A stretch of 32,000 nucleotides of DNA from Sporomusa sphaeroides DSM 2875 (lineage in GTDB: Bacteria; Bacillota; Negativicutes; Sporomusales; Sporomusaceae): assembly GCF_001941975.2 (NCBI RefSeq), contig NZ_CP146991.1, forward strand, positions 1,504,524 through 1,536,523, read 5' to 3'. Shown here one piece after another: positions 7,076 through 16,473 of the stretch. A model generated the notes under the pieces. It saw only the letters and a program-made list of their open reading frames with translations, did not search any database and was not told where the DNA came from. Position 1 is the first letter of the stretch, and the number at the start of each line of letters is the position of its first letter. Position numbers and translations under genes: made by a program.

Positions 7076-7376
7076 CCTAAATATTTTCCCACTGGGAAAA
7101 TACAGTATAATTAAGTGTACAGGCTGTTCAGGGGACGGTTAGCTCCTGCCTGTTAAGGAGAAGGATGGTACAATGACTGTTTGAAGCATTTTGCTGTCGC
7201 AGTTGCCACGCTCATGATATTGGCCATAAGCCAAAAGGAATAACCATCTCTGTGCTCAAGCCTGTTTGTTGTACCATCAGAAGCGTAGGCGTGTTGTTTT
7301 TTTCTATGGTGGCGGATTGCTCACCGAAGGCCCGTTTAACTGAATCTTAGCCAGCCGCGCAAGTCAGGATATCCAC

Positions 7377-8210: not shown

Positions 8211-8615
8211 CTAGCGGTCAGTAAGCTGCATTTCGCCAGGGCCACCCTCGGTCCAGATAGTTATAAACACCTGGCCGTTTTCCCGAAAAGCACGCAGCAA
8301 CTCACAATGACGCAGGACAGCAAAGTTTTTTTCGAGCTGTAGCCGTGATATGCTTAATTTTTGCATAATTTGGTCATGTGTAACCGGTCCTTCAGCTTGG
8401 ACGTAATTGTAGAGGTCTTTTTGCAGGTCGGTCAGGCCATCGGTGCCTTCCTGGCCTGCTGCCTTGCGTGCCGATTTAGCACTGTACACGGCAGCTACAT
8501 CACAACTGCGCGGCGGTTCCAGCGCTTCCACATAACAGTCCTCACACAGTGTCTGGCCCCGGTGTTTGACTTCTTCACCAGCCGGAATGGCTGCATTGCA
8601 TTTTTGACAAACCAT
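8211..8615 (-). CDS. Hypothetical zinc-ribbon plus winged-helix-like protein
   Basis: 134 aa. The N-terminal CQKC...CEDC forms a four-Cys zinc ribbon. The C-terminal part (LQKDLYNYVQAEGPVTHDQIMQKLSISRLQLEKNFAVLRHCELL) looks like a wHTH. No named family was recognised. Confidence 0.6.
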   Translation of the reverse strand: MVCQKCNAAIPAGEEVKHRGQTLCEDCYVEALEPPRSCDVAAVYSAKSARKAAGQEGTDGLTDLQKDLYNYVQAEGPVTHDQIMQKLSISRLQLEKNFAVLRHCELLRAFRENGQVFITIWTEGGPGEMQLTDR

Positions 8616-8811
8616 TGTTCTAACCTCCAGTTATGCTATGTGTTTTGGTACTCTATTTTATTATAGCAAAGTAACAATGTAAATAGGAAGTCAATTAACG
8701 TTGGTGTGAATTAGTGTGATGACTTATACCACTTATGTCATAAAAAATACCAGATGTGAGCAAGTCATTATAAGGAACAAGTGGTCAAAATATCAAGTGC
8801 GAAATAAATTT

Positions 8812-8897
8812 TATATAGCATAGGCAAACCTTCTGAAAAGTGGGGACGCAAAGCCACGGGTCTAAGACAATTTGTTAAGATAGCCAGGTTGCAAAGA
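8812..8897 (+). promoter_or_regulatory. c-di-GMP-I (GEMM-I) riboswitch aptamer in the leader of the pgaABCD-like operon
   Basis: The sequence AUAGGCAAACCUUCUGAAAAGUGGGGACGCAAAGCCACGGGUCUAAG...AGAUAGCCAGGUUGC matches the conserved GEMM-I core as remembered from Vc2 (GGCAAACC-stem-GAAA tetraloop-stem-GGGACGCAAAGCC-CGG-CUAA...UAGC-GGGUU-C). That includes the GNRA tetraloop hairpin and a CUAAG tetraloop-receptor-like element. Confidence 0.8.
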
Positions 8898-8926
8898 TGG
8901 TTAACTTTGTAATCGGGCTATTTTTA
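8880..8926 (+). terminator. Intrinsic terminator forming the riboswitch expression platform
   Basis: A 17-position stem AUAGCCAGGUUGCAAAG / CUUUGUAAUCGGGCUAU (one mismatch, two G-U pairs) has loop AUGGUUAA and is followed by UUUUU. Its 5' arm reuses the 3' strand of the aptamer (AGCCAGGUUGC), so aptamer and terminator are mutually exclusive. This predicts an ON switch. Confidence 0.7.
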
Positions 8927-9091
8927 CATCCATTTGAATGTGCTTGTATAGCTAGCTAAGTTCATTTTAATGTTCTAGCATGCTCTCCAATGGAAGGTGC
9001 GGCAAGCTGTCTGTTCAGTATGAACCAATGTAGAAATGATACTAAGAACGTGTTAGGAATGACAAGAATTTATCATATAAGGGAGTTTGAT

Positions 9092-11404
9092 ATGATGCAA
9101 GTTAAGGCAGCTTTGTTAGGGGCAGTGTTGAGTCTTTGCCTCAGCAACACTGCGCAGGCTGCACCTGCTGTGGCGGAAATGCAACCTTCGCTGGCGTTGC
9201 TGAGGCAAAATTATGAAGAACAGCAAGGAAACTGGCAGGTAGCGCAGGATTATGCGGTGGCATTGGCGCGGGATGGACAGTATGGGCTGGCACTGGCTAT
9301 ATTCGAAACGTTGTCAGAATATGCCGGTGTGCAGAAAACCATGTGGTTTGATTATGCTGTTGTTGCTTGCTGGGCCGGGGATTATGCAACTGCCGTTCGG
9401 ATTTATGAAAACCAATTACTGCATATGTCGCAAGCTGTTCCCGATTATGTAAGAGTCAATGTGGCCAGCGCTTATTTTAAACTTGAACGCTATAATGAGG
9501 CATGGCAGTTATACCACCGATTAGTTCAAGACGGAAATCAGAAGGTCAGGCTCTGGGAAGCAGAAAGTCTGGCTTATATGGGTAAAAATGAGGAAGCCGA
9601 TATAGTTTATGAGACCTTGCTGACAGAACAGCCTGACAATCTGGAGGTCTATAGCGGCAAAGCCAGACTGCTGTTTTTGCGCGGTGATGCGATTGGCGCG
9701 GTTGCGGTTATTGATAAAGCCCTGGCGCTGATCGCCCGGAGCAAGGAAAAGTATCCGGTGCAATCACTGTTGTCACTGCGGGGGGAAATGGCGGCACAAT
9801 GTATCAGAAATGAGGAGTACTATCATGGAATAGTACTTCTGCGTCCGACGATTCAGGATGGTTCGGCTACCATTCAAATGCAGTGTGATTATATTTTGGC
9901 GTTATTCCTAAACGGCGATTATAAAACGGCGATTACCGAAGCAGAGCGTCTATGGCCAGATTATCGCAGTATTCCCGTATATGGACGGCGGGCGTTAGCC
10001 GACGCTTATTTGCGGTATAACCTGCCCCAACAAGCTATCGGTGTTTATCGCAGTATCTGGGATGATGAAGAATCACTGTTAAGTGACAAACATAGCTTGG
10101 CCTATTCGTATTTATTGTCAGGGAAAAATAAGAGAACCGGCATGGAATTATACACTGAAATTATTAATACAGGCATTGAGCAAGCCATGAATGTTGCTTA
10201 TGATGCTAATCGTTTCTTTGAAATGGGACGATATGAAGCGGGAAAAAATCTGTATCACACAATCATCAATACGTACCCGGAAAATGTAATAATTCGCCAG
10301 CGTTTTGCAGTTGCTCTTTATAATAGTGGGCTGCTCCGGGAAGCCTGCGAGCAATATGAAGCCTTGGCGGCGTTGCCGGCTGCGCAGCCTGTAGCTGCCG
10401 GCGGTATTATAAATTCAGCGGTTACTGTCGGTGACTATCGTGCTGCCAGAAGCGCGCTCGAAAAGCTAAATGGTGAATATAGCACCAACCCGGTTGTGGC
10501 TCAGGCGGCAGGCCGGTTTGACCGGCGCCTGCAGGGTGATATGTATTCTGCTTTTTCCAGCAGTAGTGATTATAAAGGCAATGAGGTTCGCACCGGTCAA
10601 ATCATTGGTGAACAGCGGCTTGGCGATCGTTTCTTTGCATTGGCCGGAGTGGCTGCCAGCCGGATTTCTGATAATGATGGCGCAGATACCCTGAAAACCT
10701 TTTCTGTCGGTGGACGATATGTTGATATGAAACACACCGCGCAGCTGTGGCTGGATCAAAGCCGCAATCACGGGACACTTAATGGTTACCGTTTTGCTGG
10801 CAGTTACTATTTTGGTGAACAAAGCTGGTTGGATTTTGCCATCAATCGTGTACCGGTAGCTGATGTGCAGGCATTGGCAGACCGGATTATGCTGACAGAA
10901 TACCAGCTAGGGTTTACCCGTCAAATAGGTACCCGGGATATCGCTGGCATTACGGCAACTACTGCGAATTACAGTGACAGCAATCTCCGCAACGGGTTTA
11001 GTCTGGACTGGGAACATATCATGATTAATAATGCACAAAAAACGCTGAGCTGGTTTAGTTATTTTGGCAGGGATAATTATAAAAAGCAGGAGATCAATGG
11101 TGTTGAACCTGTCTATGAAAGTCCGGAGACACGGGAAAGTTATGGGGCAGGCTTGCGCCAGCGTTGGCATTACCCTAAGCATTATTGGGAAACCTCGCTG
11201 GATTTGGGCTGGGGACGCGACCGGCCGGAGCCTATAGATTTTAATCCTGCTGTTCGTTTGGAGTATGGTTGTACATTTTCGCGTAATCAAGCATTAGTGA
11301 TTGGTGCCGGCTACGGCTTACGCACCGGTTACTCAACAAGTACAGGGGGAAAGCCCCAATTTGCTGATCGACAATTTGATGTTAGTTACTATTTCACGTG
11401 GTAG
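9092..11404 (+). CDS. pgaA: PgaA-like PNAG export porin (N-terminal TPR domain plus C-terminal outer-membrane beta-barrel)
   Basis: Starting at ATG 9092 (GGGAG RBS 6 nt upstream) gives the signal peptide MMQVKAALLGAVLSLCLSNTAQA. A TPR-like helical-repeat region follows. The C-terminal ~270 aa has alternating beta-strand character and ends in YYFTW, an OMP-type aromatic terminus. It is the first gene of a pgaB-pgaC-pgaD set. The track start at 8990 adds 34 residues with no RBS. Confidence 0.8.
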   Translation: MMQVKAALLGAVLSLCLSNTAQAAPAVAEMQPSLALLRQNYEEQQGNWQVAQDYAVALARDGQYGLALAIFETLSEYAGVQKTMWFDYAVVACWAGDYATAVRIYENQLLHMSQAVPDYVRVNVASAYFKLERYNEAWQLYHRLVQDGNQKVRLWEAESLAYMGKNEEADIVYETLLTEQPDNLEVYSGKARLLFLRGDAIGAVAVIDKALALIARSKEKYPVQSLLSLRGEMAAQCIRNEEYYHGIVLLRPTIQDGSATIQMQCDYILALFLNGDYKTAITEAERLWPDYRSIPVYGRRALADAYLRYNLPQQAIGVYRSIWDDEESLLSDKHSLAYSYLLSGKNKRTGMELYTEIINTGIEQAMNVAYDANRFFEMGRYEAGKNLYHTIINTYPENVIIRQRFAVALYNSGLLREACEQYEALAALPAAQPVAAGGIINSAVTVGDYRAARSALEKLNGEYSTNPVVAQAAGRFDRRLQGDMYSAFSSSSDYKGNEVRTGQIIGEQRLGDRFFALAGVAASRISDNDGADTLKTFSVGGRYVDMKHTAQLWLDQSRNHGTLNGYRFAGSYYFGEQSWLDFAINRVPVADVQALADRIMLTEYQLGFTRQIGTRDIAGITATTANYSDSNLRNGFSLDWEHIMINNAQKTLSWFSYFGRDNYKKQEINGVEPVYESPETRESYGAGLRQRWHYPKHYWETSLDLGWGRDRPEPIDFNPAVRLEYGCTFSRNQALVIGAGYGLRTGYSTSTGGKPQFADRQFDVSYYFTW

Positions 11405-11422
11405 TTAGGAGGTTTATTTTGG

Positions 11423-13264
11423 ATGAACAGAAAAGTGTGGATATCTCTGTTATGCCTGCTGGGAGTATTATTTTCTGTTAGTTTACCGGCTGCGGCAAAC
11501 GATGTTCTTATTTTATGCTATCACGATGTTGCTGAAAAGCCAGGCAATAATATTTATACTGTAACGCCTGCTGCCTTGAGAAGCCATTTGGATTACTTGA
11601 AGGAAAATGGCTATACACCTATTTCGCTTGAAGACTATATTGCAGCATCAAAGGGGGAAGATAAGCTGCCGGCTAAGCCGGTGATGCTAACCTTTGATGA
11701 CGGGTACCAGTCCTTTTATACAAAAGTATTTCCTTTACTGAAAGAATATAATTATCCGGGGATGATGGCCATTGTAACATCATGGCTGGATTACGCCCCT
11801 GCCGATCTGGGACCGCTGCTGACCTGGCAGCAAATTCGGGAGATGGAATCTTCCGGTTTGATTACTATTGCGTCCCATTCTCATGCGGCACATCGTTTTA
11901 CTGTCACTACACCCCAAGGCGACCGGGGACCGCTATTCGGTAGTTTGCAATATAAAGAGGGAAAATACGAATCGGTTGCCGACTACCGGCAACGGGTAAT
12001 GAGTGATTTTGCGGCAACGCAAGCAGTGTTGACAAGAGAATTGGGACATAAAGCCCAAGCGCTGGTTTGGCCTTTTGGGGCCTACACCCAATTAGCTATT
12101 GAGGATGCTTTCGCGGCAGGCTTCGAAGCCTGCTTTGCCTTGGATGACGGGGTTAACCGTCCCGGAAAACAGGCGCTGAAAGAAGCCAATCGTATCATCA
12201 TAACGAATAACCCGTCCAAGAAAAGGTTTGCTCAATTAGTTAACACAATCGGCAAGGCACCGGTCAAAGCCGCACAACTGGATCTCGACAAAATTTATGA
12301 TCCGGATAGTACCGAACAAACGGAAGAAAATCTAAATTTGGCCATTGACCGCCTCCTGGCTTCCGGTACGAATACCGTTTACCTGCAAGCCTTCAGTGAT
12401 GAGAATGGAACAGGCAATATAGAAAGTGTATATTTTTACACCACGACAGCTCCGGTCAGGGCCGATATTTTTAACCATGTGATTGCACGCTTGCGGGCAG
12501 AAGGCAAATTTACAATTTATGCATGGCTGCCGACACTGGCGGCGCAATGGATTATTGATGAGAATCCGGAAACTGCGGTTGTGGCCTGTGAAGCAAAAAA
12601 TCTGGGCTGGTATCGCCGGGCAACTCCTTTTAGCCCGGAAGTGAGTGACCGCCTGACAGCGATGGTTACTGATCTTGTGAAATACAATGATATCAATGGC
12701 ATACTGTTTCAGGATGATGTATATCTTAATGATTTTGAGGATTTCTCACCCGCAGCCAGGCAAGTATTTAAAACTGAGACAGGTTTGGAGCTTACTCCCG
12801 AATTATTGAAAGCTGACCCGGAATTAAATGACCGCTGGATAAAAATGAAAACTAATGCGCTTACCGGTCTGACGGTAAAACTACAGGCTGCAGCGAAAGA
12901 ATACCGGACTAATCTTGGCAGTGCCCGCAATATTTACCCTATCCTTATTACTGAGCCCGCAGCTGAAACGTGGCTGGGTCAAAATTACGGGCAATATCTG
13001 GATACCTATGATTATACGGTGATTATGGCCTATCCCTATTTAGAAAAAGAATATGAGGATCCGGTTGGCTGGCTGGAAGAATTAGCAACAGCTGCATTAA
13101 AGAATCCGCAGAATGCGCAAAAAACCGTGTTTAAATTGCAAACTTATGATTGGAATAAAAACCGCTGGCTAAGCGCAGATGAAATAAATCGCTTTACCAA
13201 TGCGCTGAAGAAAAAAGGCGCTATTCATATTGCATACTACCCGGAGAATGTTTTTTCGGAATAA
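11423..13264 (+). CDS. pgaB: Poly-beta-1,6-N-acetyl-D-glucosamine N-deacetylase PgaB (CE4 deacetylase plus C-terminal glycoside-hydrolase-like domain)
   Basis: Signal peptide, then CE4 motifs (LCYHDV, LTFDDGYQSFYTKVFPLLKEY, SHSHAAH, WPFG), then a ~300-aa C-terminal domain as in PgaB. AGGAGG RBS. Confidence 0.9.
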   Translation: MNRKVWISLLCLLGVLFSVSLPAAANDVLILCYHDVAEKPGNNIYTVTPAALRSHLDYLKENGYTPISLEDYIAASKGEDKLPAKPVMLTFDDGYQSFYTKVFPLLKEYNYPGMMAIVTSWLDYAPADLGPLLTWQQIREMESSGLITIASHSHAAHRFTVTTPQGDRGPLFGSLQYKEGKYESVADYRQRVMSDFAATQAVLTRELGHKAQALVWPFGAYTQLAIEDAFAAGFEACFALDDGVNRPGKQALKEANRIIITNNPSKKRFAQLVNTIGKAPVKAAQLDLDKIYDPDSTEQTEENLNLAIDRLLASGTNTVYLQAFSDENGTGNIESVYFYTTTAPVRADIFNHVIARLRAEGKFTIYAWLPTLAAQWIIDENPETAVVACEAKNLGWYRRATPFSPEVSDRLTAMVTDLVKYNDINGILFQDDVYLNDFEDFSPAARQVFKTETGLELTPELLKADPELNDRWIKMKTNALTGLTVKLQAAAKEYRTNLGSARNIYPILITEPAAETWLGQNYGQYLDTYDYTVIMAYPYLEKEYEDPVGWLEELATAALKNPQNAQKTVFKLQTYDWNKNRWLSADEINRFTNALKKKGAIHIAYYPENVFSE

Positions 13265-13287
13265 TTTAAACCAGGGGGTGAAACAGG

Positions 13288-14532
13288 GTGGAAACATATA
13301 GCTGGCTTGAGTTTTTAGAGAACTATGTTTTCTATTACCCACTGGCAATGAGTATTGTCTGGATGATGGGCGCATCGTATTTTTATTTGCGGCGGGAGCG
13401 AGGAGAAAAACAGGTACCGGAGTTAAAAGAATATCCGCTGGTATCGGTGTTGATTCCTGCCCGCAATGAAGAAGACGCTATCCGCAGCACGGTCGAAGCC
13501 GTACTTACTTCTGAATATCCTAATTTTGAAATTATCGTTCTTGATGATGCAAGTACAGATTCTACCGCAGCTATTATCCAGGAAATTGAAGCTAACGAGG
13601 AACGAGTACGGGTGTTATTGTTAAATAAAAATGTAGGTAAACCGTCGGCGCTGCGTTATGGGGCGTTGGCCAGCAGAGGGGATATCCTGCTTTGCATTGA
13701 TGCGGATGCGTATCTTGATCCATGGGCGATGCACTGGATGGTCAGTCATTTTAATGGTCCCCGCGTGGGGGCGGTTACCGGTAATCCCCGGGTGAGAAAC
13801 CGTACATCCCTGTTGGCGAAAATTCAGGTGGGTGAATACTCCTCAATCATCGGGATGATTAAACGCACCCAACGGATTTTAGGCAAAGTGTTGACTGTAT
13901 CTGGCGTAATTGCTGCTTTCCGTAAGCAAGCTATTTTTGACGCCGGTTTATGGGATACCGACATGATTACTGATGATATTAATATTACGTGGAAACTGGA
14001 AAAACGATTCTGGGATATCCGTTATGAACCGAATGCGTTGTGTTGGATTTTAGTGCCAGAGACGGTCAGCGGCTTGTGGCGGCAGAGAGTCAGATGGGCA
14101 CAAGGCGGTGTAGAGGTTGTCCGCCGGCACCGCGATATTTGGAAAAGCTGGAAACAACGCCGTTTATGGCCGGTATATCTAGAGTATGTGTTATCCATCA
14201 TCTGGTCATATGTTTTTATTTTACTGGGGATTGTCGGACTTGTTAACTTAACTTATCCAACCGGCTTGCCGGAGGTGCGTATTTTTCCGGAATGGAAAGG
14301 TTCGATGCTTGCTTTTATATGTCTGCTGCAGTTTCTCATCGGTTTAACTATTGACCAAAAATATGAGAAATCTATTCCGGGCTATTTGTTTTGGGTTATT
14401 TGGTATCCCTTTGCCTATTGGCTATTGACGGCTTTGGCTACCGTATATGCAGCACCACGGGCATTATTCCGAAAAATGGGACAGCCAGCTGTCTGGACCA
14501 GTCCTGACAGGGGGATATTCACCAAATTATAA
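13288..14532 (+). CDS. pgaC: Poly-beta-1,6-N-acetyl-D-glucosamine synthase PgaC (GT2)
   Basis: GT2 hallmarks are present: VLIPARNEE, VLDDASTD, IDADA, GNPRVRN and the processive-synthase motif QRVRWAQG. TM helices flank the catalytic domain. GTG start with a GGGGGTG RBS. Confidence 0.9.
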   Translation: METYSWLEFLENYVFYYPLAMSIVWMMGASYFYLRRERGEKQVPELKEYPLVSVLIPARNEEDAIRSTVEAVLTSEYPNFEIIVLDDASTDSTAAIIQEIEANEERVRVLLLNKNVGKPSALRYGALASRGDILLCIDADAYLDPWAMHWMVSHFNGPRVGAVTGNPRVRNRTSLLAKIQVGEYSSIIGMIKRTQRILGKVLTVSGVIAAFRKQAIFDAGLWDTDMITDDINITWKLEKRFWDIRYEPNALCWILVPETVSGLWRQRVRWAQGGVEVVRRHRDIWKSWKQRRLWPVYLEYVLSIIWSYVFILLGIVGLVNLTYPTGLPEVRIFPEWKGSMLAFICLLQFLIGLTIDQKYEKSIPGYLFWVIWYPFAYWLLTALATVYAAPRALFRKMGQPAVWTSPDRGIFTKL

Positions 14533-14560
14533 TGCGCATTCATGCGAAAGGAGGGAGCTT

Positions 14561-15277
14561 TTGAACACCAGTGACAATTTGTACCGGATTTTAGGCAGCA
14601 AGCTTATGGCTATTATTGCAGGTCTTCTATTAGTGGTCATTGTGCTGTATCTTAGCTATGTCTTTGGGTACATTCAGGCCCCTGAACAGTTGTTAATCAA
14701 GAATATAGCAGTATTCTTTGTTATAATAAGTGCAATTGTAATTATTACCGGGTTGCTTTTTTATAACATTACACAAATGATTTTCTTAACTAAAGCTCGA
14801 GAAACTGAAGAAGCTGCTGCGTTGGAAACCCAACTGGTAATTAATCAACCGATTTTGCAGAAGCCGATTATCCGCGGCTTAGAGGTATTGGCTTCGGCTT
14901 CGATCTGGGTTGTTTTTTTATACTTTTTTCAAACATTCCTTTCGGCGGTTGTTTGGATCTTAGGTGGACGCTCCTTGTACGCCAAGCTTTTTTCACCGGA
15001 CATTATTGAAGGCACAGAAAATATGTTGTTTCTGGTTTTTGTCTTTGCATTAGCGATGTTTTTGGTCATGCTGGCTTGGGCTAACTGGAATTACCGGAGG
15101 TATGGGCGTTTGGAGCGTCGTAAACCGCGTCCGCCCATACCGTCCAATATTATTGCCAGCTATTATGATATTCCGGAACAAATGGTGTTTACTGTCCAAG
15201 ATATGAAGATTGCAAGAATCAGTCCGTTAGATAGCGGGTTAAATATGGAAGTAGTAAAAAAACTGGTCAAAAATTAG
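14561..15277 (+). CDS. pgaD: PgaD-like PNAG synthesis accessory membrane protein
   Basis: It lies immediately after pgaC and has several TM helices. The PgaD-like juxtamembrane motif is LAWANWNYRRYGRLERRK. The start was reassigned to TTG 14561 (AAAGGAGGG RBS 7-8 nt upstream), because the track start at 14447 would overlap the last 86 nt of pgaC. Confidence 0.65.
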   Translation: MNTSDNLYRILGSKLMAIIAGLLLVVIVLYLSYVFGYIQAPEQLLIKNIAVFFVIISAIVIITGLLFYNITQMIFLTKARETEEAAALETQLVINQPILQKPIIRGLEVLASASIWVVFLYFFQTFLSAVVWILGGRSLYAKLFSPDIIEGTENMLFLVFVFALAMFLVMLAWANWNYRRYGRLERRKPRPPIPSNIIASYYDIPEQMVFTVQDMKIARISPLDSGLNMEVVKKLVKN

Positions 15278-15414
15278 GTGATTTTTTCAAAACAACAAGG
15301 CTTACGTTATGGTCAAAGATGCGTATAGACTTTGTTGTTTTACAATTAATAAAAACTCAGGTTCTGATTTATACTAATTAAACAAGGTACTAATCTTTTG
15401 CCTGGGAGAATTTT

Positions 15415-16473
15415 ATGCCGAAAAAACCATTTGAAGATTTGACAATCGAAAAGGTTCGACGCGATGATCTTGGCAATTTAGAGAAGTTATTTACCAGTGC
15501 TTTTGCTGATGAAGTGGATATTGAACAAGTGAAACGCCGCATTCGTCGCACCAGACAATTTTATTATATTCTGAACCCGTTAAGTAAGTTTTCTCTATGG
15601 GTTAAAAACCATTTTAATATTTATGTAATAAAAATTTCCGGGGAATTAGTGGGGTTTGTCCAGGTATCTTACATCAACTCTACTCAGATGCATATTGATT
15701 ATATTGCCTTTAGCAAAGCGTACCGGGGACAGGGTCTGGGCCAGTGGGTGCTGACGATGCTGTTTTCCCAGGCGGCTGATGCTAATAATTATGATGTTAT
15801 TTTGGAAGTCCGGGTTGGCAATAGGGCCTACAACTTCTATAAACGGCTGGGCTTCCGGGAAATGACCGAGATACTGCATTACGAATTGCGTCTGGAGCCG
15901 GCCTTTGTATTGCCGCAAGTAGTGGAATTGCCGGGATTCCGTAAGCTTACCACGCGGGAACGCGGGAAATTATATCATTTATATCTGGAGTCGGTGCCTA
16001 CTACCCTGCGCCGGGTGATTAGACGGACTTACGGGGAGTTTAGCCCCAGTATGATGGTTAGGCATCTGGAATGGGCGAAAAATTATCTGATGCGTAAACA
16101 AAAGCAGGACTACGTTGTGGAACAAGACGGCAAAATCGTAGCCTGGCTGAATATGAACAGTTATTTCAAGGTCAAAAGCCATGTAATCAGTCTTACCATA
16201 CATCCGGACTATGAGCCCTTGCGCCAGGGGCTGCTCAGTAAGGCCATTCGGCTTATTGCTGAGAGCTATGGCCCGGGTGTTATCAGCACCACAATCTATA
16301 GTGACGATCCTGGCAAACAGGCTGTTTTAGAGCAACTGGGCTTCCGCAAGGAGTTGGCCTATTATCTGATGTTTCGGCCGGCGGCGGCAAAGCGCAATGA
16401 CTCAGGCAAGTCACCTGCGCACACAACGAAGCCCTGGCCTGTCAGTGGCAGGCCAGGGAAAAAACGAATATAG
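15415..16473 (+). CDS. GNAT-family N-acetyltransferase (tandem GNAT-like domains)
   Basis: 352 aa. The first domain has the acetyl-CoA binding motif YRGQGLGQWVL plus NRAYNFYKRLGF. The second half has GNAT-like strand/helix periodicity ending in LEQLGFRK. Confidence 0.75.
   Translation: MPKKPFEDLTIEKVRRDDLGNLEKLFTSAFADEVDIEQVKRRIRRTRQFYYILNPLSKFSLWVKNHFNIYVIKISGELVGFVQVSYINSTQMHIDYIAFSKAYRGQGLGQWVLTMLFSQAADANNYDVILEVRVGNRAYNFYKRLGFREMTEILHYELRLEPAFVLPQVVELPGFRKLTTRERGKLYHLYLESVPTTLRRVIRRTYGEFSPSMMVRHLEWAKNYLMRKQKQDYVVEQDGKIVAWLNMNSYFKVKSHVISLTIHPDYEPLRQGLLSKAIRLIAESYGPGVISTTIYSDDPGKQAVLEQLGFRKELAYYLMFRPAAAKRNDSGKSPAHTTKPWPVSGRPGKKRI

What the first reader, a model, noticed from the sequence alone, without database searches (positions are those of the whole stretch)
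8812..8926. c-di-GMP-I riboswitch with a mutually exclusive terminator controlling a pgaABCD-like operon (predicted ON switch)
The aptamer core is recognisable by eye (GGCAAACC...GAAA...GGGACGCAAAGCC.CGGG.CUAAG...AGCCAGGUUGC). The 3' aptamer strand is also the 5' arm of a strong terminator hairpin followed by U5. Ligand-stabilised aptamer folding should therefore prevent termination and turn on PNAG synthesis, which fits c-di-GMP promoting biofilm matrix production. In E. coli, c-di-GMP is known to act on PNAG synthesis post-translationally at the PgaC-PgaD complex. An RNA-level c-di-GMP input on a pga operon would add a transcriptional layer and is a clean, testable regulatory prediction.
Basis: partly seen in the sequence, partly recalled or inferred. 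Interest (0 to 1): 0.6.

Follow-up and report, generated by a model that had tools for sequence, protein, structure and literature searches.

The report
c-di-GMP riboswitch switching on PNAG operon
A well-known type of RNA sensor for the bacterial signal c-di-GMP sits in front of a complete pgaABCD biofilm-polysaccharide operon in a diderm Firmicute, is built to let transcription through only when the signal is present, and arrived with the operon as one inserted cassette; I found no paper describing this gene pairing, but the mechanism itself is ordinary.

Summary
Rfam RF01051 (c-di-GMP-I) matches window 8813-8896 at 72.2 bits (gathering score 35, E 1.6e-12). The last 20 nt of the aptamer form the 5' arm of a 19-bp hairpin (8877-8924) that runs into U5 (8921-8925). 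pgaA, pgaB, pgaC and pgaD follow at 9092-15277.

The ON-switch reading is supported by comparison. Seven other Negativicutes genomes carry the same aptamer ahead of pga, and all ten leaders share the aptamer/terminator overlap. The terminator helix covaries: 87.9% of cells pair, 6 pairs carry compensatory changes, and 0 of 500 shuffles reach this. One shared position covaries with both of its alternative partners. The ligand-contact bases (Vc2 G20, A47, C92) are invariant. The genome has 27 GGDEF matches.

The riboswitch and pgaABCD are a roughly 6.8-kb insertion. Same-genus genomes have the two flanks about 240 nt apart. The nearest copy (about 82% nucleotide identity) is in another family and shares only the riboswitch and the operon.

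Not shown: ligand binding, c-di-GMP-dependent readthrough, or expression.

No searchable paper links a c-di-GMP riboswitch to pga. This scan has noted riboswitch-gated polysaccharide operons before, in Clostridia, on other DNA. Verdict: a new member of a known kind, of moderate interest.

The parts
8782..8810 (+). Possible promoter: TGGTCA (8782-8787), 17-nt spacer, TAAATT (8805-8810), 8 of 12 matches. It would start the RNA near 8817, just ahead of the first base-paired aptamer position.
   Evidence: Read by eye. The promoter scan found no + strand site with at least 9 of 12 matches in 8400-9300. Homology with the nearest relative starts at 8782. That relative has a near-consensus TTGACA-18-TAAAAT further upstream, and the window has not kept its -35 box. 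Weak and inferred.
8813..8896 (+). c-di-GMP-I (GEMM-I) aptamer. First helix 8824-8849 with GAAA tetraloop 8835-8838; second helix 8852-8890. Ligand-contact equivalents are G8823, A8850 and C8892.
   Evidence: RF01051 at 72.2 bits against gathering score 35, E 1.6e-12. 20 of 22 consensus pairs are canonical. G, A and C are invariant in all 10 pga-linked leaders. The mapping to Vc2 G20/A47/C92 follows PMC11218506 and PMC5888326.
8877..8925 (+). Intrinsic terminator: 5' arm 8877-8896 (identical to the aptamer's 3' end), loop 8897-8904, 3' arm 8905-8924, U-run 8921-8925.
   Evidence: Minimum-free-energy folds and the terminator scan. On alignment A1 the helix is 87.9% paired, 6 pairs have changes on both sides, 0 of 500 shuffles reach this, and slid controls give 36-52%.
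8927..9039 (+). 113-nt spacer found only in this genome's copy of the leader. No function assigned.
   Evidence: Absent from the G035 copy, single copy in the genome, no stable fold (z = +1.75), no promoter-like site on the + strand.
9080..9085 (+). Shine-Dalgarno sequence AGGGAG, 6 nt before the ATG at 9092.
   Evidence: Read directly. It lies 155 nt past the terminator, so the riboswitch cannot act by masking it.
9092..11404 (+). pgaA: outer-membrane PNAG export porin with TPR domain.
   Evidence: TPR families, and PgaA_barrel at 26.5 bits (cut-off 27) over residues 497-739. A signal-peptide-like N-terminus can be read.
11423..13264 (+). pgaB: PNAG de-N-acetylase plus glycoside-hydrolase-like domain.
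   Evidence: Polysacc_deac_1 at 70 bits and GHL13 at 294 bits.
13288..14532 (+). pgaC: family-2 glycosyltransferase, the PNAG synthase.
   Evidence: Glyco_tranf_2_3 at 120.7 bits and Glycos_transf_2 at 115.8 bits.
14447..15277 (+). pgaD-like gene. The longest ORF overlaps pgaC, so the true start is probably further downstream.
   Evidence: PgaD family at 47.1 bits on residues 130-259. Homology with G035 runs to 15276.
8630..15413 (+). Inserted cassette: leader with riboswitch plus pgaABCD.
   Evidence: In the same-genus genomes G008 and G014, window 8629 and window 15414 correspond to points about 240 nt apart. None of the 19 other same-family genomes searched has pgaB, and none has a PgaA match beyond the TPR region. 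Homology with G035 covers only 8782-8926 and 9040-15276.

Best explanation
This is a transcriptional ON riboswitch for c-di-GMP that controls a pgaABCD (PNAG) operon. RNA polymerase first transcribes the aptamer (8813-8896). Without ligand, the aptamer's last 20 nt pair with 8905-8924 instead. That builds a 19-bp hairpin ending in the U-run, and transcription stops before pgaA. When c-di-GMP is bound, it holds the second aptamer helix and C8892 in place. The terminator then loses its 5' arm, polymerase reads on for about 165 nt to the pgaA ribosome-binding site, and the operon is made. Leader and operon entered this genome together as one cassette, so the operon brought its own c-di-GMP input. 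Shown here: aptamer identity, the shared strand, conservation and covariation of both alternative structures, the operon's content, and the insertion. Inferred: ligand binding, the direction and size of the response, and expression in this host.
For: The aptamer scores 72.2 bits against a gathering score of 35. The ligand-contact bases are G, A and C in all 10 leaders (mapping). With the terminator the fold is -32.4 kcal/mol. With the aptamer helices enforced it is -24.3, and only a 6-bp hairpin remains, 12 nt away from the U-run. All 10 pga-linked leaders place the last 15-20 nt of the aptamer inside the terminator's 5' arm; G054 was read by eye because the script stopped at an earlier U-run. 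The terminator covaries: 6 pairs and 15 cells have changes on both sides, 0 of 500 shuffles reach this, and slid controls give 36-52% paired. Column 84 reads C-G-C, U-A-U or U-G-U with its two alternative partners. RF01051 lies ahead of pga in 7 other genomes from several families, and these cluster on the PgaB tree. The genome has 27 GGDEF matches. The ribosome-binding site is too far away for translational control.
Against: No + strand promoter with at least 9 of 12 matches lies upstream, and the donor-type -35 box is outside the shared DNA, so this copy may be poorly transcribed. The aptamer has two non-canonical pairs. Most Negativicutes pga loci examined have no riboswitch: 31 of the 38 other upstream stretches, a few of them cut by contig ends. 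The ten leaders are related, so the shuffle statistics overstate independence.
Confidence: 0.85

Rival explanations
1. The element is a genuine riboswitch by descent but is silent or decaying in this host. The cassette lost its original promoter when it was inserted, so pgaABCD is little expressed whatever the c-di-GMP level.
For: No + strand promoter with at least 9 of 12 matches lies in 8400-9300. G035 has TTGACA-18-TAAAAT upstream of its aptamer, but homology with the window begins only at 8782, inside that promoter. A 113-nt stretch of unknown origin sits between the terminator and the ribosome-binding site.
Against: All four pga genes are open and the aptamer scores as high as its relatives. 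The terminator is intact. An 8-of-12 promoter is present at the right distance.
Confidence: 0.1
2. It is an OFF switch: c-di-GMP binding promotes termination and lowers PNAG synthesis. This is how class I riboswitches behave in Clostridioides difficile.
For: The C. difficile class I riboswitches are described as transcriptional OFF switches (PMC11477304).
Against: Here the terminator's 5' arm is the aptamer's own 3' strand in all ten leaders. A folded aptamer and the terminator therefore cannot coexist, and no separate anti-terminator that the aptamer could disrupt is evident. Class I ON switches are known, such as Bc2 of Bacillus thuringiensis (PMC11218506).
Confidence: 0.03
3. The aptamer senses another cyclic dinucleotide, such as 3'3'-cGAMP, as some GEMM-I variants do.
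For: Rare c-di-GMP-I variants sense c-AMP-GMP (PMC7266159). One relative (G033) scores best as the c-di-GMP-I-GGC variant RF03167.
Against: The position equivalent to Vc2 G20, which contacts one guanine of c-di-GMP, is G in all ten leaders, and the C92 equivalent is C. That cGAMP-sensing variants carry A at this position is my own recollection of Kellenberger et al. 2015 and Nelson et al. 2015, which I could not open. The window's RNA scores on RF01051 itself.
Confidence: 0.02

Closest known systems
Bc2, the c-di-GMP-I ON riboswitch upstream of cap in Bacillus thuringiensis BMB171
   Same: Class I aptamer in a Firmicute. It acts at the level of transcription, and more c-di-GMP gives more downstream expression (PMC11218506). 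It controls a surface or adhesion function.
   Different: Bc2 controls a collagen-adhesion protein gene, not a polysaccharide operon. It has been tested by reporter fusion; this element has not.
Vc2 (Vibrio cholerae, upstream of tfoY), the structural reference for c-di-GMP-I
   Same: Same fold family. GAAA tetraloop, and G20, A47 and C92 equivalents present.
   Different: Different host phylum, target gene and expression platform. This element has a plain terminator overlap.
Clostridioides difficile class I riboswitches (e.g. upstream of flgB)
   Same: Same aptamer class, with transcription termination as the output, in Firmicutes (PMC11477304).
   Different: Those are OFF switches on motility and protease genes. 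This one has ON architecture on a matrix-polysaccharide operon.
E. coli pgaABCD regulation (CsrA on the pgaA leader; c-di-GMP binding to PgaC-PgaD)
   Same: Same four-gene PNAG machinery. c-di-GMP is the activating signal (PMC12564702).
   Different: In E. coli, c-di-GMP acts on the PgaC-PgaD protein complex, and the leader is controlled by CsrA and Rho (PMC4052769, listed). No riboswitch is known there. Here the c-di-GMP input is on the mRNA leader.
Riboswitch-gated exopolysaccharide operons of gut Clostridia noted earlier in this scan (NELoc-2-like cassettes)
   Same: A c-di-GMP-I aptamer heading a synthase-dependent polysaccharide operon in Firmicutes (AI notes that I did not check).
   Different: Those operons have non-canonical gene sets (HEAT partner, VTC/CotH module) in monoderm hosts. 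This is the canonical Gram-negative-type pgaABCD with an outer-membrane porin in a diderm host.

Membership tests
c-di-GMP-I riboswitch (Rfam RF01051, GEMM-I) | Covariance-model score at or above the curated gathering score | tested here: met
   72.2 bits against 35, full-length match 1-87/87, E 1.6e-12.
c-di-GMP-I riboswitch (Rfam RF01051, GEMM-I) | Two side-by-side helices, the first capped by a GNRA tetraloop (type I architecture) | tested here: met
   20 of 22 consensus pairs are canonical and the GAAA loop is at 8835-8838. On the 10-leader alignment the aptamer pairs are 87.3% formed, with 6 pairs changed on both sides. The tetraloop-receptor contact itself cannot be tested from sequence.
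c-di-GMP-I riboswitch (Rfam RF01051, GEMM-I) | Ligand-contact nucleotides equivalent to Vc2 G20, A47 and C92 | tested here: met
   G8823, A8850 and C8892, invariant in all 10 leaders. The mapping uses the Bc1 G11/A38/C81 correspondence in PMC11218506 and the contacts described in PMC5888326.
c-di-GMP-I riboswitch (Rfam RF01051, GEMM-I) | Binds c-di-GMP selectively | not testable with these tools
   Needs in-line probing, ITC or a gel-shift assay.
c-di-GMP-I riboswitch (Rfam RF01051, GEMM-I) | Lies in the 5' leader of a co-directional gene, with an expression platform that competes with the aptamer | tested here: met
   The aptamer ends 195 nt before the pgaA start. The terminator shares 20 nt with the aptamer.
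Intrinsic (Rho-independent) terminator | Stable stem-loop immediately followed by a U-run, conserved in relatives | tested here: met
   19-bp stem at -21.9 kcal/mol ending in U5. Present in all 10 leaders, with compensatory changes. Termination activity itself was not tested.
pgaABCD PNAG synthesis and export operon | Four co-directional genes: TPR/beta-barrel porin, deacetylase with GHL13 domain, GT2 synthase, PgaD | tested here: met
   Pfam hits. PgaA_barrel scores 26.5 bits, just under its cut-off of 27, but covers 243 residues at the C-terminus. PgaD scores 47.1 bits. The polymer made was not tested.

The most novel reading that the evidence does not exclude
The riboswitch and pgaABCD form a self-contained transferable module. 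It has moved between families of diderm Firmicutes with its c-di-GMP sensor attached, so any recipient that already makes c-di-GMP gains signal-controlled PNAG production at once. If PgaC-PgaD here also needs c-di-GMP, as in E. coli, the same signal would gate the pathway twice, at RNA and at enzyme level, giving a sharp threshold. Relatives with two complete riboswitches in tandem would sharpen it further.
Probability: 0.45. Interest if true: 0.55.

Novelty: new member of a known kind. Interest (0 to 1): 0.42.

Why it matters
PNAG is one of the most widespread biofilm polysaccharides. In the model systems its control by c-di-GMP is known only at the protein level (PgaC-PgaD), with CsrA and Rho acting on the leader. 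This locus and seven relatives show that a lineage of pga operons instead, or in addition, reads c-di-GMP directly on the mRNA. That gives a compact natural part (about 115 nt) linking c-di-GMP to a defined matrix polymer, and a simple system for testing one-signal, two-level control. It also shows a regulatory RNA travelling with its operon during horizontal transfer. It adds a named target to the largely unannotated c-di-GMP-I regulon and a first handle on c-di-GMP signalling in Negativicutes, which one recent paper calls unstudied in Selenomonas (PMC13339959). It does not change how riboswitches are understood to work.

Tried and rejected
- **Plasmid search:** window 8700-9100 against plasmids found no match.
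- **Organism name:** The look-up of encoding contigs returned an unnamed Logan contig. 'Sporomusa' rests on an earlier scan note that I did not verify.
- **PgaA across the family:** hits were only to the TPR part of roughly 1100-aa proteins at 26-30% identity. I read these as other TPR proteins, not orthologues.
- **More upstream DNA at ten pga loci:** no further RF01051 or c-di-GMP-II hits; only lysine riboswitches belonging to neighbouring genes.
- **A second regulatory structure or bypass promoter in 8927-9100:** the region does not fold better than shuffles (z = +1.75) and has no promoter-like site on the + strand.
- **A conserved P1 stem closing the aptamer:** candidate pairs in the window (8819-8821 with 8897-8899) are not kept in G035, so I make no claim.
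- **CsrA-type GGA sites in the leader:** only seen by eye, not tested.
- **Kellenberger et al. 2015 (PMC4418906):** not held.
- **Literature:** eight full-text searches found no paper linking a c-di-GMP riboswitch to pga or PNAG.
- **Metagenome pattern scan:** not run, because the genome set already gave enough leaders.

Full report
**1. The observation**

Scanning the whole window against Rfam 15 gives one riboswitch hit. RF01051 (c-di-GMP-I) matches 8813-8896 on the + strand, full length, at 72.2 bits against a gathering score of 35, E 1.6e-12. Mapping the consensus structure onto the sequence gives 20 canonical pairs out of 22, with U8832/U8841 and C8857/A8886 as the exceptions, and a GAAA tetraloop at 8835-8838.

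Folding 8805-8930 gives a minimum-free-energy structure dominated by a hairpin. The fold has z = -3.3, and none of 200 shuffles folds as well. The hairpin's 5' arm is 8877-8896, its loop 8897-8904 and its 3' arm 8905-8924. It has 19 pairs, one A/G mismatch, and -21.9 kcal/mol on its own. It ends in the run UUUUU at 8921-8925. The independent terminator scan reports the inner stem plus T-run.

**2. What follows it**

The next genes on the same strand are:
- pgaA, 9092-11404: TPR repeats plus a C-terminal PgaA_barrel match.
- pgaB, 11423-13264: Polysacc_deac_1 plus GHL13.
- pgaC, 13288-14532: GT2.
- A PgaD-domain protein inside 14447-15277.

A good Shine-Dalgarno sequence (AGGGAG, 9080-9085) precedes the ATG at 9092. 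That is 155 nt past the terminator, so control must be at the level of transcription, not ribosome access. The stretch between them (8927-9100) has no stable structure (z = +1.75) and no promoter-like site on the + strand.

**3. The two structures exclude each other**

Nine aptamer positions are paired in both structures, and the whole 3' strand of the second aptamer helix lies inside the terminator's 5' arm. C8892, the equivalent of the base that pairs with one guanine of the ligand, pairs with G8909 in the terminator.

Energetically the terminator fold wins without ligand: -32.4 kcal/mol, against -24.3 when the aptamer helices are enforced. In the enforced fold only a 6-bp hairpin survives, 12 nt away from the U-run, which is not a terminator geometry. 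The aptamer is transcribed first, so ligand capture during transcription would decide the outcome. That last step is inference from how such switches are known to work.

**4. Comparative evidence**

PgaB is a specific marker, and I searched 401 genomes of the class with it. 41 have it, and none of the 19 other genomes of the window's own family do. PgaA gives only TPR-region matches in the genus.

I fetched the DNA upstream of pgaB at 38 usable loci plus one 296-nt contig stub, and scanned all of it with every Rfam model. RF01051 lies ahead of pga in G035, G051 (two copies in tandem), G029 (two copies), G054, G102 and G094. In G033 the same RNA scores best as the sister model RF03167. No c-di-GMP-II hit appeared anywhere. 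Fetching more upstream DNA at ten loci added nothing. That makes eight of 39 loci counting the window, with a handful not assessable because a contig ends.

In all ten leaders the last 15-20 nt of the aptamer are the 5' arm of a hairpin followed by a U-run. For G054 I read the hairpin by eye, because the script stopped at an earlier U-run.

On the alignment of the ten leaders (A1) the terminator helix behaves as follows:
- It is 87.9% paired.
- 6 pairs and 15 cells have changes on both sides.
- No shuffle out of 500 reaches these values.
- Sliding the partner strand by 1-3 columns drops pairing to 36-52%.

The aptamer pairs are 87.3% formed, with 6 pairs changed on both sides.

Column 84 is the most telling. 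With its aptamer partner (column 44) and its terminator partner (column 122) it reads C-G-C in four leaders, U-A-U in two and U-G-U in two. That is what two alternative, selected structures predict. The leaders are related, so these numbers overstate independence. The slid controls keep relatedness and still fail.

**5. Ligand**

The positions that contact c-di-GMP in the Vc2 structure are G20, A47 and C92 (PMC5888326). They correspond to positions 11, 38 and about 81 of a class I aptamer numbered from its start (PMC11218506). They are G8823, A8850 and C8892 here, and they are invariant in all ten leaders. The genome has 27 GGDEF-domain matches and two more RF01051 aptamers elsewhere, so the signal and this mode of sensing are in use. 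Binding itself is untested.

**6. Origin**

The window and the closest pga locus (G035, in a different family; PgaB 82% identical) share only 8782-8926 (88%) and 9040-15276 (81.5%). Their flanks are unrelated.

Within the window's own genus the flanking genes are conserved in all 15 other genomes. In G008 and G014, window 8629 (the end of a small zinc-ribbon-like gene) and window 15414 (the start of a GNAT gene) correspond to points about 240 nt apart, against 6.8 kb here. So the leader plus pgaABCD is an insertion into a conserved site.

On a PgaB tree, the window, G035, G051 and G029 form a 100/100 clade in which every member has the riboswitch. A 99/98 clade of nine rows holds six with it. 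The RNA has therefore stayed with this operon lineage while the lineage spread across host families. GC content does not mark the insert: 0.43-0.48 inside, much as outside.

**7. Weak points**

- No promoter of normal strength lies upstream. The best candidate is TGGTCA-17-TAAATT at 8782-8810, with 8 of 12 matches. G035 has a near-consensus promoter whose -35 box lies outside the shared DNA. This copy may be weakly expressed.
- Most pga operons of the class have no riboswitch, so this is one lineage's solution and not a general rule.

**8. Comparison with what is known**

The aptamer is a regular member of c-di-GMP-I. Class I switches that turn genes on are known, such as Bc2 of B. thuringiensis (PMC11218506). 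Those of C. difficile are OFF switches (PMC11477304).

c-di-GMP control of PNAG is known in E. coli at the PgaC-PgaD complex (PMC12564702), and the pgaA leader there is a CsrA/Rho target (PMC4052769, listed). Eight full-text searches found no paper that places a c-di-GMP riboswitch on a pga operon. A regulon survey says most GEMM-controlled genes are of unknown function (PMC3766115).

Earlier notes of this scan describe riboswitch-gated but non-canonical polysaccharide operons in gut Clostridia, on other DNA. The general theme is therefore not new to the scan.

**9. Verdict**

This is a real c-di-GMP-I riboswitch with conserved, covarying ON architecture, heading a canonical pgaABCD operon that entered this genome as a cassette. 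It is a new member of a known kind. A specialist would find it plausible rather than surprising. Its value lies in naming a clear target, the evidence for a mobile sensor-plus-operon module, and an easy bench test. Interest 0.42.

Noticed in passing
L045:1892-2270 (G051) and L046:1889-2269 (G029): Two complete c-di-GMP-I riboswitches in tandem ahead of pgaA, each with its own terminator. In G051 a near-consensus promoter (TTGACG-17-TAGAAT) lies between them, so the second switch may also head its own transcript.
   Followed up: partly
window 15415-16473: The tandem-GNAT gene just after pgaD belongs to the conserved genus synteny and sits next to the empty site in relatives. It is not part of the pga cassette.
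   Followed up: partly
window 8927-9039: A 113-nt stretch between terminator and ribosome-binding site is absent from the closest relative's leader, single copy in the genome, unstructured, and of unknown origin.
   Followed up: yes
window 7084-7260: A segment of about 170 nt matches many places (67-80% identity) in this genome and every same-genus genome, so it is a dispersed repeat. It lies in the gene-poor stretch that another note calls a transposase remnant, just upstream of the insertion.
   Followed up: no
L063:203-4668 (G094) and L065:483-574 (G033): In this genus the riboswitch heads an operon that starts with a BcsB-like gene (668 aa) before pgaA and pgaB. Nearly identical aptamers score as RF01051 in one genome and as the c-di-GMP-I-GGC variant RF03167 in the other. 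A third genome of the genus (G067) has the same gene order but no aptamer within 3 kb.
   Followed up: partly
L001:1501-1588 and L002:1501-1588 (own genome, C1:1742320 and C1:2652255): The genome's other two c-di-GMP-I aptamers precede an 88-aa sigma-70 region 4 / HTH protein and a PAS-domain protein. Their expression platforms were not examined.
   Followed up: partly
window 14447-14532: The longest pgaD-like ORF overlaps the end of pgaC by 86 nt, and the PgaD domain covers only residues 130-259. The real start is probably downstream, so the 'enlarged PgaD' may be partly an ORF-calling effect.
   Followed up: no
window 8940-9085: Several GGA motifs lie in the leader after the terminator (for example near 8995, 9056 and the Shine-Dalgarno sequence). 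They recall the CsrA sites of the E. coli pgaA leader, but this was only seen by eye.
   Followed up: no
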